A stretch of DNA of 64,000 bases from Escherichia coli (GTDB taxonomy: Bacteria > Pseudomonadota > Gammaproteobacteria > Enterobacterales > Enterobacteriaceae): the NCBI RefSeq assembly GCF_013122565.1, contig NZ_CP053258.1. One strand, given 5' to 3'. Positions 36,217 to 39,200 of the stretch are shown here, piece by piece. A program made the position numbers. Each line of letters begins with the position of its first letter. Within the stretch, counting starts at the first letter, position 1.

Positions 36217-39200
36217 TGATTTCCCGCTGGTTTACCCCGTCCACTTCAGACGGGGTTCTTAATACTCTCCCCGGGCAGCCGTCCGGGGGATTAACCGTGA
36301 GATAATGACTGATGGAACTCATTGAAAAACATGCCAGCTTTGGCGGCTGGCAAAATGTGTATCGGCATTATTCCGCATCACTGAAATGTGAAATGAATGT
36401 CGGCGTCTATCTCCCACCAAAAGCTGCAGGTGAAAAATTACCTGTGCTGTACTGGCTTTCGGGCCTGACCTGCAATGAGCAGAATTTCATTACTAAATCG
36501 GGGATGCAGCGTTACGCGGCTGAGCACAACATTATTATTGTTGCGCCGGACACCAGTCCGCGAGGCAGTCATGTCGCAGATGCCGACCGTTACGATCTCG
36601 GGCAAGGTGCCGGGTTTTACCTGAACGCGACGCAAGCGCCGTGGAATGAACATTACAAAATGTATGACTATATCCGCAACGAGCTGCCGGATTTAGTGAT
36701 GCAACATTTTCCGGCAACGGCCAAAAAGTCTATCTCTGGTCATTCTATGGGCGGGCTGGGCGCGCTGGTGCTGGCGTTACGTAACCCAGATGAATATGTC
36801 AGCGTCTCGGCGTTTTCGCCCATTGTCTCCCCATCGCAAGTGCCGTGGGGACAGCAAGCCTTTGCTGCATATCTTGGTGAAAATAAAGAGGCCTGGTTGG
36901 ATTACGACCCGGTGAGTCTTATTTCACAAGGTCAACGCGTTGCGGAAATCATGGTTGATCAGGGGTTGAGTGATGATTTTTACGCGGAACAGCTGCGGAC
37001 TCAAAATCTTGAAAAGATCTGCCAGGAGATGAATATCAAGACGTTAATCCGTTATCACGAGGGTTACGACCACAGCTATTATTTTGTCTCCAGTTTTATT
37101 GGCGAGCATATTGCCTACCACGCCAATAAACTGAATATGCGTTGATAATAGTGCACGACTGCCGGATGCGGCGTGAACGCCTTATCCGCCTACATTTCGC
37201 CCGCAGGCCGTAGGCATGATAAGACGCGCATAGCGTCGCATCAGGCATCTGCGCACGACTTATCTATGTTTACCACATCAAATCATCAGGCACTTTGAAG
37301 TCGGCATACGGATCGTCTTCATCCTGCTCTTCGGCACTGAGCGCGCTGTGCAACACAATACTGCTGGCATCACGCTGAGCAATTTTATCGGCAACGCTGG
37401 CGGGAATAATGGCGTATTCACCTTCGCTATTGTTATCGACCAACAAGCGGGCAATCGCCAGACGACCATTAATCAACTGCGCCTGTGTGAGCTTATCGAC
37501 AAAAATCTTCTTAATCAGATTGCCGTCAGTGAAGTTAAAACCAATATCGCCATTGGCAATGGTGATTCGGTTCATTTCAATGAGCTGCTTCACCTGGGCT
37601 TTATATTCTTTCGCCAACGCCGCTTGTTTTTGCTGTTCGCTAAGCTGTTTATCACGCTCAAGCTGTGCCTTTTTATTTTCTTCTACCGCCGCCCGAGCTT
37701 CACGCGCCTGAACGCGCGATTTTTTCGCCGTTCTCTCGACCTTCGCCGCTTTTTTGCTGGTGACTAATCCTGCTTTGAGCAACTGCTCTTGTAAGGTAAG
37801 TTTTGCCATCTTTGTTTCCAAACCCGCTGAATAATTTTTAGCGAGTATACCTGTAAACGCCGTGGGTGTATTGGGGGCAAGTCCCTTTCGCCCCTGCTTA
37901 ATAAGGCGCGTCAGGCATCGGCACACGGCTGCATTCTTGATCTCCGACTCATCAAAATAAACACCGCCAACCCAGCAACAAGAATACCCGGTGCAGAAGC
38001 GGCCATTACGCCGACCGTGCCAGTGCCTAATGCCAGCATTTTCCCGGCCAGTAACGGACCGCTCATAGCCCCCAGACGCCCTACCGCCACGGCTGTTCCC
38101 ACACCTGTTGCGCGGATCTGCGAACTGTAAAACAACGGTGCCAGGGCATACAAAACGCTTTGCCCACCTGTCGCAAACAACCCCGCGACAAATCCCGCCA
38201 GCAACATACCGTTAAATGACGACACCGTTCCAAGCGCCAGCAGCGAAGCTAACATGCCGCTATAAATCAGTAGCGACATGGTTACTGGACGCAGCTTATC
38301 CATCAATGCGCCCAACATTAACGTCCCGCTCGCCGCACCCATTTGCAGTGCAAACATCACCCCTGCCGCCTGCGATGGCTGGAATCCTTGCTCCACCAAA
38401 AGCAGCGGTAGCCAGTTGATCAACATGTAAACCACCAGCAGAGTGAAGAAATAACACAGCCACAGCAGCAGCGTCGCGGTTGCCGTTTCTGGCGCAAATA
38501 ACGCACGCAGTGGTGGCGCAGCCTGTTTTTCGCCAGCGAAAACCGCCGACTCCGGCAGCCAGCGCATTAATAGCGGCACCAGAATCAACGGCACCACACC
38601 ACCTACCCAAAACACCGTTTGCCATGCTAAATTTGCCCCCGCGAAACCCAGTGTCGCCGCCAGCGCCGCGCCAATGGGAACACCGCAATACATCAGGCTC
38701 ACTGCCGTCCCACGAAAACGTGGACCCGCGGCTTCAGACGTCAGGGCGATAAGATTCGGCAACGCCGCCCCCAGCCCGACACCGGTCATCAGCCGCGCAA
38801 AGACCAGTGAGGGGAAATCCCAGGCAATCGCCGTTGCCAGTGAGAACAAACCAAACAGCGCAACTGAGCCAATCAAAATGCGCTTGCGACCATAACGGTC
38901 CGCCAGCATTCCACCAACCAACGCGCCGGGTAGCAAACCGAGTATTCCGGCGCTGAATATCCAACCCATTTGCATTTTATCGAGTGCGAAAGCCTGAGCG
39001 ATGCCACCCGCCGCAATGCCAGCCGCCTGAAGATCCAGCCCTTCCATCAGAGCGACCAAAAAACAAAGCCCGATGGTCAGCATCAGGCGGGTTGAAGATG
39101 ATGAAGGGGTACGAGTCGACATAAGATGAACCTCGTTGCGAGTACAGGTGAATCGCGGCTGATACATTGTCAGCCGCGTAATCAGAACCATTTAATGACT

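What the first reader, a model, noticed from the sequence alone, without database searches (positions are those of the whole stretch)
36220..36311. Structured G/C-rich spacer between frmA and frmB
The 92-nt frmA-frmB spacer contains two potential hairpins (ccccgtccacttcagacgggg and ccccgggcagccgtccgggg) inside an operon. They may act as an attenuator or RNA-processing site that sets relative frmA/frmB expression.
Basis: seen in the sequence. Interest (0 to 1): 0.2.

Follow-up and report, generated by a model that had tools for sequence, protein, structure and literature searches.

The report
Conserved mRNA hairpins between frmA and frmB
The 92-base gap between two formaldehyde-detoxification genes of E. 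coli really does contain two stable hairpins, conserved in the messenger RNA strand, that probably make the first enzyme's message outlast or outnumber the second's; this is an ordinary kind of operon fine-tuning, not a new type of element.

Summary
The window is E. coli O157:H7. The frmA–frmB (fghA) spacer is 36220–36311 and holds two GC-rich hairpins, hp1 at 36235–36255 and hp2 at 36269–36288. They fold better than shuffled sequence (z −4.9 for the pair), and the spacer ranks in the top ~2% of 92-nt windows.

The spacer is single-copy, present in 5416 of 5426 E. coli genomes, and matches no Rfam family, REP element or FrmR operator.

**hp2 is old.** It sits 21–23 nt upstream of the frmB/fghA start in Escherichia chromosomes and in plasmid-borne frmR-frmA-VOC-fghA clusters. 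One G-C↔U-A pair is compensatory, the loops are unrelated, and the G·U variants keep only the sense-strand fold.

**hp1 is found only in Escherichia among the loci examined.** It is followed by UUCUUAAU and is not a canonical terminator.

Published RNA-seq reports frmB mRNA at about 28% of frmA when the operon is highly expressed, and frmR mutants derepress both genes. So read-through occurs, with a step-down.

My best reading is intercistronic mRNA stem-loops acting as a decay barrier or processed-end protector, perhaps with weak termination. This is inferred, not shown. I rate it a new member of a known kind, of low interest.

The parts
34725..34773 (+). frm promoter with two perfect inverted 19-mers (GCATACCCCCCTATAGTAT), matching the operator type known for the CsoR/RcnR-family repressor FrmR; included as the operon's control region
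   Evidence: The 19-mer is found only at 34725-34743(-) and 34755-34773(+). A promoter-like TTGACA-17-TAGTAT lies at 34745-34773. Sequence.
34800..35075 (+). frmR, formaldehyde-responsive repressor (91 aa)
   Evidence: RefSeq annotation of the identical O157 record; Pfam PF02583, E 2e-23.
35110..36219 (+). frmA, S-(hydroxymethyl)glutathione dehydrogenase (369 aa, stop TGA 36217-36219)
   Evidence: ORF, annotation, Pfam ADH_N and ADH_zinc_N.
36220..36311 (+). frmA-frmB intercistronic spacer, 92 nt (91-93 nt in other E. coli)
   Evidence: Single copy per genome, present in 5416 of 5426 E. coli genomes.
36234..36256 (+). Hairpin 1: 7 G/C-rich pairs (CCCCGUC/GACGGGG) plus a closing A-U, with a 7-nt loop; -14.1 kcal/mol. 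Found only in Escherichia among the loci examined.
   Evidence: z -4.3. Natural variants keep pairing through U-A>U-G, C-G>U-G and G-C>G-U changes; 97.7% of cells paired. The mobile clusters have no counterpart.
36256..36268 (+). A/U-rich single-stranded linker UUCUUAAUACUCU. Its first 8 nt form the U-rich tail of hp1. It is a candidate endonuclease target (inferred).
   Evidence: Unpaired in the MFE and centroid structures. TTCTTAAT is identical in all 10 E. coli spacers examined, incl. K-12 (GTCTTAAT in L005). An IS421 insertion with GGTTCTTAAT duplicated lies here in one strain.
36268..36289 (+). Hairpin 2: 8 pairs CCCCGGGC/GUCCGGGG (one G-U) plus a closing U-G, with an AGCC loop; -17.5 to -17.7 kcal/mol. 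It is a conserved leader element of frmB/fghA.
   Evidence: It lies 21-23 nt from the ATG in Escherichia and in plasmid-type clusters, with one G-C<->U-A compensatory pair, one G-U/G-C/A-U pair and unrelated loops. The sense fold stays at -15.0 to -20.2 across variants while the antisense fold drops to -7.1.
36290..36311 (+). frmB translation-initiation leader AUUAACCGUGAGAUAAUGACUG, with the SD-like GAGA at 36299-36302, 9 nt before the ATG
   Evidence: Read directly from the sequence. The last 27 nt before the ATG (36285-36311: GGGG of the hp2 3' arm, G36289 and this leader) are 74-93% identical between Escherichia and the plasmid-type clusters, although about 60% of four-fold sites differ.
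36312..37145 (+). frmB (fghA), S-formylglutathione hydrolase (277 aa)
   Evidence: ORF, annotation, Pfam Esterase, E 4e-79.
37151..37249 (.). REP/BIME cluster downstream of frmB, between the convergent frmB and yaiL; the likely 3' boundary of the operon
   Evidence: Sub-threshold Rfam naRNA4 (REP-derived) matches at 37151-37247. REP consensus-like sequence is visible. In K-12, a Term-seq 3' end on the frm strand lies at 377325, just beyond such a REP.

Best explanation
The spacer encodes two stem-loops that form in the frmRAB mRNA (sense strand), separated by a 13-nt A/U-rich single-stranded linker.

I think they uncouple frmB from frmR-frmA after transcription. RNA polymerase mostly reads through. 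The message is then cut in or downstream of the linker, or decays from its 3' end. hp1 (and hp2) block 3'-to-5' exonucleases, so the frmR-frmA part persists. hp2, which lies just outside the ribosome-binding region of frmB, marks and may protect the 5' edge of the frmB translation-initiation region. The net effect is more frmA than frmB message.

**Shown:** the structures, their conservation and strand specificity, read-through, and a frmA>frmB mRNA step-down.

**Inferred:** the nucleases, the cleavage site, and that the hairpins cause the step-down.
For: 1. The hairpins are real and non-random.

2. hp2 is under selection as a sense-strand RNA. It lies 21-23 nt from the fghA ATG in all 14 distinct sequences from Escherichia chromosomes and plasmid-type frmR-frmA-VOC-fghA clusters. 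Pair 5 is G-C in Escherichia and U-A in the plasmid type. Pair 7 is G-U, G-C or A-U. The loops are unrelated. All single-site stem variants outside E. albertii are U-G or G-U, so the sense fold stays between -15 and -20 kcal/mol while the antisense fold falls as low as -7.1.

3. The hp2+leader segment is 70-78% identical between the two clades although 53-69% of four-fold sites differ. Against E. albertii the spacer differs at 13% of sites, versus 31-38% at four-fold sites.

4. hp1 variants in E. coli keep pairing; 97.7% of cells are paired.

5. Length-normalised RNA-seq (CPKM) in a K-12 derivative, listed as frmR / frmA / frmB:
- high-expression condition: 8.73 / 11.67 / 3.27
- low-expression condition: 0.022 / 0.058 / 0.0082 (PMC4132294 Table S7)

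In a p-coumarate data set, frmR and frmA pass the induction list and frmB does not.

6. frmR mutants derepress both frmA and frmB, so the spacer is not a full stop (PMC13029678).

7. Unrelated strong hairpins lie at the same place, ending 21-27 nt before the frmB ATG, in Proteus, Providencia and Mangrovibacter.

8. Established knowledge, not tested here: U-tract-less intercistronic stem-loops stabilise upstream cistrons, as in malE-malF REP, papBA and Rhodobacter puf.
Against: - No 3' or 5' RNA end has been mapped in the spacer. The one Term-seq data set checked lists none, but the frm operon is normally repressed without formaldehyde, so this is probably uninformative.
- The RNA step-down rests on one data set. 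It could instead reflect convergent antisense transcripts that end inside frmB or a different intrinsic stability of the frmB coding RNA.
- Many lineages have only 1-21 nt between frmA and frmB, so a hairpin is not required for the pathway.
- hp1 folds as well or better on the antisense strand in most strains, so its strand cannot be assigned.
- E. albertii has two mismatches in hp2 and a 101-nt insertion, and one E. coli strain carries an IS in the linker, so the arrangement is tolerant of disruption.
Confidence: 0.4

Rival explanations
1. hp1 is a weak Rho-independent terminator. A fraction of polymerases stop after the GC stem and the UUCUUAAU tail, producing an frmR-frmA transcript. The rest read through to frmB. 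This is constitutive polarity, not a regulated switch.
For: - hp1 has a GC-rich stem of 7-8 pairs, directly followed by TTCTTAAT: 5 U in 8 if the stem is taken as 7 pairs, 4 in 8 with the A-U closing pair.
- frmB RNA is 3.6-fold below frmA.
- Proteus hairpins at the same place carry clearer U-rich tails, 5-6 U in 8.
Against: - The consensus terminator scan does not call it.
- The U run is interrupted after two residues, and its first U is G in one Escherichia lineage (GUCUUAAU in L005).
- No Term-seq 3' end is listed there (though the frm operon is normally repressed without formaldehyde).
- It does not explain the deeper conservation of hp2, which has no U tail.
Confidence: 0.2
2. The hairpins act on translation. 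A weak long-range helix pairs the sequence just after the frmA stop (36222-36232) with AACCGUGAGA (36293-36302), which contains the frmB SD. It encloses both hairpins, so frmB initiation would depend on ribosomes finishing frmA opening it. Alternatively, hp2 simply insulates the frmB ribosome-binding site from upstream sequence.
For: - The MFE structure contains this closing helix.
- One lineage shows a G-C>A-U double change and a G-C>G-U change in it (helix 1, pairs 11-78 and 10-79).
- hp2 keeps a constant distance from the ATG, and the leader is nearly invariant.
Against: - The closing helix is short and interrupted.
- Pair 8-80 is unpaired in 4 of 11 sequences, including K-12.
- Overall covariation is no better than shuffles: 36-47 of 500 reach the observed values.
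- The 5' partner does not exist in the plasmid-type clusters.
Confidence: 0.12
3. The hairpins have no function of their own. They are GC-rich palindromes left by past rearrangement of the spacer and are tolerated. The apparent conservation reflects only the short evolutionary distances and the need to keep the frmB ribosome-binding site.
For: - hp1 is restricted to Escherichia, and divergence within E. coli is too low for statistics; shuffles reach the observed covariation in 36 of 500 trials.
- Against the closer Escherichia lineages the spacer is no more conserved than four-fold sites: 9.8% vs 6-10%, and 13% vs 18%.
- Insertions in the spacer are tolerated.
- Many genera have no spacer structure.
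Against: - hp2 keeps its stem through a fully compensatory pair and strand-specific wobble changes, while its loop is replaced and four-fold sites are saturated.
- The spacer is 2.5-3 times more conserved than four-fold sites against E. albertii.
Confidence: 0.2
4. It is a DNA-level element: a REP/BIME-like or other dispersed palindromic repeat, a second FrmR operator, or an internal promoter for frmB.
For: The sequences are GC-rich palindromes. The frm operators also contain C/G runs. REPs lie just downstream of frmB.
Against: - The spacer is single-copy in each genome.
- Neither hairpin sequence recurs in the window.
- There is no Rfam or naRNA4 hit in the spacer.
- The FrmR operator 19-mer occurs only at the promoter, even allowing 3 mismatches.
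- No promoter-like site lies in the spacer.
- The wobble-type variants make sense only for RNA.
Confidence: 0.03

Closest known systems
Intercistronic stabilising stem-loops of polycistronic mRNAs (malE-malF REP, papB-papA, Rhodobacter pufBA/pufLM hairpins)
   Same: GC-rich hairpins without a proper U tract sit between two cistrons of one operon. The upstream message is more abundant than the downstream one.
   Different: These are not REP sequences and are single-copy. No decay intermediate or nuclease dependence has been shown here.
Weak internal Rho-independent terminators in operons (e.g. rpsU-dnaG-rpoD, rplKAJL-rpoBC attenuator)
   Same: hp1 is a GC stem followed by a U-rich stretch inside an operon, and read-through is needed for the distal gene.
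   Different: The U tract is interrupted and below the scan's threshold. No terminated transcript has been detected.
5'-UTR stabiliser hairpins (ompA 5' stem-loop; 5' end of processed papA mRNA)
   Same: hp2 is a stable stem-loop just upstream of the ribosome-binding region, preceded by an A/U-rich single strand, at a conserved distance from the start codon.
   Different: No 5' end, whether primary or processed, has been mapped at hp2. No promoter-like site lies upstream.
Plasmid-borne formaldehyde-resistance clusters frmR-frmA-VOC-fghA of Enterobacterales
   Same: They carry the same hp2-plus-leader module in front of fghA, and FrmA is 94-95% and FrmB 78-80% identical in protein.
   Different: A 132-aa VOC/glyoxalase gene lies between frmA and hp2, and there is no hp1.

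Membership tests
REP / BIME elements | Match to the ~35-nt REP palindrome consensus | tested here: not met
   The Rfam naRNA4 (REP-derived) model gives sub-threshold matches to the REPs at 37151-37247 but nothing in 36220-36311. The spacer sequence does not resemble the REPs visible.
REP / BIME elements | Many dispersed copies per genome | tested here: not met
   The spacer has a median of 1 place per genome, at most 2, in 5416 E. coli genomes at blastn sensitivity. Neither hairpin string has a second copy in the window with up to 3 mismatches.
Rho-independent (intrinsic) terminator | GC-rich stem-loop immediately followed by a U tract (scan criterion: at least 5 T in 8) | tested here: inconclusive
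   The scan reports no site in the spacer. Read by hand, hp1 is followed by TTCTTAAT, which is 5 of 8 after the 7-pair stem and 4 of 8 after the 8-pair stem. hp2 is followed by GATTAACC (not met).
Rho-independent (intrinsic) terminator | RNA 3' ends at the tail in vivo or in vitro | not testable with these tools
   Term-seq tables for K-12 list no 3' end assigned to frmA or to the spacer, but the frm operon is normally repressed without formaldehyde, so this is probably uninformative (PMC7815308 supplement).
Transcription attenuator (regulated terminator/antiterminator switch) | Mutually exclusive alternative structures controlled by a leader peptide, ligand or protein | not tested
   The CCCC/GGGG arms could in principle cross-pair, by direct reading. 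No sensor, leader ORF or conserved alternative fold was found, and hp1 is absent from the plasmid-type clusters.
Any curated Rfam family | Score at or above the family's gathering threshold | tested here: not met
   The best hits in the spacer are twister-P3 at 20.8 bits (threshold 39.9) and anti-hemB at 17.8 bits (threshold 49.5), with E about 0.7.
FrmR (CsoR/RcnR-type) operator | Match to the operator repeat of the frm promoter | tested here: not met
   GCATACCCCCCTATAGTAT matches only at 34725-34773, even with 3 mismatches allowed.
Conserved structured cis-acting mRNA element (generic) | Base pairs kept through compensatory and strand-specific changes across diverged homologues | tested here: met
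   For hp2: a G-C<->U-A pair, a G-U/G-C/A-U pair, and U-G variants only on the sense strand, across 14 distinct sequences in two clades. For hp1 there are only one-sided changes within one genus, which is inconclusive.

The most novel reading that the evidence does not exclude
hp2 together with the nearly invariant 23-nt leader is a dedicated cis-regulatory RNA of fghA/frmB. It travels with formaldehyde-resistance gene clusters on conjugative plasmids. It actively tunes FghA synthesis, for example by binding a protein or sRNA, or through a ribosome-dependent refolding with hp1 that links frmB expression to frmA translation, rather than serving as a passive decay barrier.
Probability: 0.07. Interest if true: 0.45.

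Novelty: new member of a known kind. Interest (0 to 1): 0.2.

Why it matters
If the hairpins set the FrmA:FrmB ratio, they are one more case of operon-internal fine-tuning by mRNA structure.

This has some practical relevance. The frmRAB operon and its plasmid-borne relatives determine formaldehyde tolerance. They matter for methenamine prophylaxis of urinary infections (PMC13029678) and for engineering synthetic methylotrophs. The same hp2-leader module sits in front of fghA on hundreds of conjugative plasmids of Klebsiella, Enterobacter and related genera.

It does not open or close any long-standing question.

Tried and rejected
- **Rfam.** An E-value-mode scan of 34500-37500 gave nothing credible in the spacer.
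- **Dispersed repeat or REP.** Rejected, because the spacer is single-copy.
- **FrmR operator in the spacer.** Rejected.
- **Internal promoter.** No promoter-like site in the spacer. By eye, TAATAC and the plasmid-type TATAAA have no acceptable -35, and frmB is FrmR-dependent and less abundant than frmA.
- **Spacer as a deletion scar of the VOC gene seen in plasmid-type clusters.** Local alignments of the 5' half of the spacer (including hp1) against the VOC region are no better than shuffles, p mostly 0.4-1.0. Whether the VOC gene was inserted or deleted remains open. Homology starts only at the A/U-rich stretch before hp2.
- **Antisense ORF 36158..36322 (54 aa).** Rejected as coding, because the spacer is 91, 92 or 93 nt in different strains.
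- **Mini-ORF AUG-AGA-UAA in the leader.** Its first codon is ATG, GTG, CTG or ACG in different lineages, so it is not a conserved start.
- **Experimental RNA ends.** The Term-seq supplement has no entry for the spacer. The SMRT-Cappable-seq supplement has no frm entry. No paper combines frmA with Term-seq. Herring & Blattner 2004, Li et al. 2014 and Thomason et al. 2015 are not held.
- **Long-range helix closing both hairpins.** Comparative support is mixed, so it is kept only as a low-confidence rival.
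Full report
**What is there**

The window is E. coli O157:H7. A 301-nt query around the finding is 100% identical to strain TR01 and is present in 5416 of 5426 complete E. 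coli genomes. The ORFs and the RefSeq annotation of the identical record give frmR at 34800-35075, frmA at 35110-36219 and frmB (named fghA by PGAP) at 36312-37145, all on the + strand. Pfam confirms the three protein families. Both quoted strings are found once each, at 36235-36255 and 36269-36288.

**Is it more than chance?**

- The 92-nt RNA folds to -36.5 kcal/mol with both hairpins in the MFE and centroid structures (z -3.1).
- hp1 alone gives -14.1 kcal/mol (z -4.3), hp2 gives -17.7 (z -2.8), and the 62-nt segment holding both gives -31.8 (z -4.9, 0 of 200 shuffles as good).
- Only 2.1% of 92-nt windows in the 64-kb window fold as well, or 1.5% after GC correction.

So the structure is real and unusual, but not unique. 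REPs and the frm operator palindrome score higher.

**What it is not**

- No Rfam family reaches even half of its threshold in the spacer.
- It is not a dispersed repeat. The spacer is single-copy per genome at blastn sensitivity and neither hairpin recurs in the window. True REPs lie downstream of frmB at 37151-37249.
- The FrmR operator 19-mer occurs only twice, both in the promoter at 34725-34773.
- The consensus scan finds no promoter-like or terminator-like site in the spacer.
- A 54-aa antisense ORF crossing the spacer cannot be coding, because the spacer is 91, 92 or 93 nt in different strains.

**Comparative evidence, Escherichia**

I collected eleven distinct spacers: O157, K-12, seven other E. 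coli, Escherichia sp. E1V33, and the right-hand part of the E. albertii spacer. Both hairpins are paired in 97.7% of sequence-by-pair cells. Seven stem positions vary on one side only and keep a standard pair:

- hp1: U-A>U-G, C-G>U-G, G-C>G-U
- hp2: C-G>U-G twice, and G-U>G-C or A-U

Divergence is too low for the shuffle controls to be convincing; 36 of 500 shuffles reach the observed values. Against E. albertii the spacer differs at 13% of sites, whereas four-fold degenerate sites of frmA and frmB differ at 31% and 38%. Against the two closer lineages the spacer is about as diverged as four-fold sites.

**Comparative evidence, beyond Escherichia**

A scan of one genome per species with FrmB returned 80 loci, and the frmA-frmB order is widespread among them. 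The nearest relatives outside Escherichia have FrmB 78-80% and FrmA 94-95% identical. They come from Aeromonas, Enterobacter, Morganella, Edwardsiella, Serratia and Providencia. They carry a 132-aa VOC/glyoxalase gene between frmA and frmB. The same arrangement is found on 509 plasmid records, mostly conjugative, in Klebsiella, Enterobacter and others.

In these clusters the VOC stop codon is followed by an A/U-rich stretch and then a hairpin, CCCCUGAC-loop-GUCAGGGG. This hairpin is positionally homologous to hp2 and ends 21-23 nt before the fghA ATG, as in E. coli (23 nt). Across 14 distinct sequences from the two clades:

- stem pair 5 is G-C in Escherichia and U-A in the plasmid type, a double compensatory change
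- pair 7 is G-U, G-C or A-U
- a flanking pair switches between U-A and C-G
- the loops are unrelated: AGCC versus UCCCU, UUCCG, UUUCG or UCACU

Every single-site stem variant outside E. albertii is a U-G or G-U wobble. As a result the sense-strand hairpin stays between -15.0 and -20.2 kcal/mol in all variants, while the antisense version falls as low as -7.1. This points to selection on the mRNA strand, not on DNA or an antisense RNA.

The non-coding hp2-plus-leader segment is 70-78% identical between the clades, and the last 27 nt are 74-93% identical. Meanwhile 53-69% of four-fold sites have changed and frmB is about 75% identical in DNA.

hp1 has no counterpart there. The 5' half of the E. 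coli spacer shows no similarity to the VOC region beyond chance, so I cannot say whether the VOC gene was lost in Escherichia or gained elsewhere.

**More distant lineages**

Spacers range from 1 to 892 nt. Many are only 12-21 nt with no room for structure, so a hairpin is not obligatory. Where there is room, an unrelated strong hairpin is common. In Proteus, Providencia and Mangrovibacter it ends 21-27 nt before the ATG, and the Proteus hairpins have U-rich tails. In GC-rich genomes such hairpins are expected by composition, so I give this only modest weight.

**Expression evidence from the literature**

- frmRAB is one FrmR-repressed unit (PMC5146963; PMC4949985).
- frmR point mutants and a deletion derepress both frmA and frmB (PMC13029678), so transcription crosses the spacer.
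- In a K-12 derivative, length-normalised RNA levels (CPKM) in the high-expression condition were frmR 8.73, frmA 11.67 and frmB 3.27. In the low-expression condition they were 0.022, 0.058 and 0.0082. The stationary-phase values give the same direction (PMC4132294 Table S7). frmB message is thus 14-35% of frmA message.
- In a p-coumarate study, frmR and frmA are in the induced list and frmB is not.
- Term-seq tables for K-12 list no 3' end in the spacer, but the frm operon is normally repressed without formaldehyde. They do show a strong 3' end on the frm strand at 377325, next to the REPs downstream of frmB. They also show antisense 3' ends inside frmB at 377694-377696 and 378012 (PMC7815308 supplement).

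Those antisense transcripts offer an alternative cause for low frmB RNA.

**Mechanism**

The best-supported reading is that these are sense-strand mRNA stem-loops that uncouple frmB from frmR-frmA after transcription.

- hp1 and hp2 flank a 13-nt A/U-rich single strand. This is the classic layout of an intercistronic decay barrier or processing site.
- hp2 abuts the ribosome-binding region of frmB and is conserved together with it.
- hp1 plus UUCUUAAU may add some intrinsic termination, but it fails the consensus criterion. Its U run is interrupted, and it begins with G in one lineage.
- A translational role, through a weak helix pairing the region after the frmA stop with the frmB SD, appears in the MFE structure. 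It has one compensatory change, but it is broken in K-12 and three other sequences.

Which of these operates cannot be decided with sequence tools. The structures, their conservation, read-through and the RNA step-down are shown. The causal link and the enzymes are inferred.

**Verdict**

The element is an undescribed but ordinary example of a known kind, an intercistronic mRNA stem-loop. One mildly interesting extra is that hp2 is a conserved leader module of fghA shared with plasmid-borne formaldehyde-resistance clusters. I score interest at 0.2.

Noticed in passing
L083 (NZ_CP182378.1) 1119-2559; corresponds to window ~36254-36263: One E. coli strain (Br_167_kylling) carries an IS4-family IS421 inserted in the spacer, right after hp1 and before hp2, with GGTTCTTAAT duplicated on both sides. 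It is a natural mutant that separates frmB from frmA by about 1.35 kb.
   Followed up: partly
L004 (Escherichia albertii NBRC 107761) spacer, locus 2307-2500: The E. albertii spacer is 194 nt. A ~101-nt insertion adds a perfect 9-bp hairpin (CCCCGCCCU-GUC-AGGGCGGGG) and a REP-like sequence (GCCTGATGTGCTACACCTGTCAGGCCTAC), and repeats the motif CTGGTTTnCCCCG. hp2 there has two mismatches.
   Followed up: partly
L006-L012, L084-L088 (plasmid-type clusters): A frmR-frmA-VOC(glyoxalase family, 132 aa)-fghA cluster, with FrmA 94-95% identical to the E. coli protein, is found on 509 plasmid records. Most are conjugative (IncN, IncHI1B, IncX3, IncF) in Klebsiella, Enterobacter, Citrobacter and others, some alongside NDM carbapenemase plasmids. 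FrmB of E. coli has no relative between 95% and 80% identity among the species representatives returned.
   Followed up: partly
window 36312-37145 (K-12 377535-378368): Published Term-seq lists 3' ends of transcripts antisense to frmB (K-12 377694-377696 and 378012, + strand), presumably read-through from the convergent yaiL. It also lists a strong frm-strand 3' end at 377325, beside the REPs. The antisense RNA could depress frmB mRNA.
   Followed up: no
window 34718-34778: The frm promoter holds two perfect inverted copies of a 19-mer (GCATACCCCCCTATAGTAT) that overlap the -35 and -10 hexamers. This 92-nt region is among the most stably folding windows of the 64 kb despite ~40% GC.
   Followed up: partly
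window 31453-34640 versus K-12 380069-381260: Upstream of frmR, the O157 window has an ABC transporter permease and the fbpC ATPase. K-12 has yaiO, the yaiX pseudogene and IS2 instead. The frm operon therefore sits at a boundary of variable gene content.
   Followed up: no
L017, L034, L041, L043, L048 (Proteus), L074 (Providencia), L024-L054 (Photorhabdus): Other Enterobacterales have unrelated hairpins in the frmA-frmB spacer. The Proteus ones end 21-23 nt before the ATG and are followed by U-rich tails (5-6 U in 8). The Photorhabdus ones are A5/U5-flanked, resembling bidirectional terminators.
   Followed up: partly
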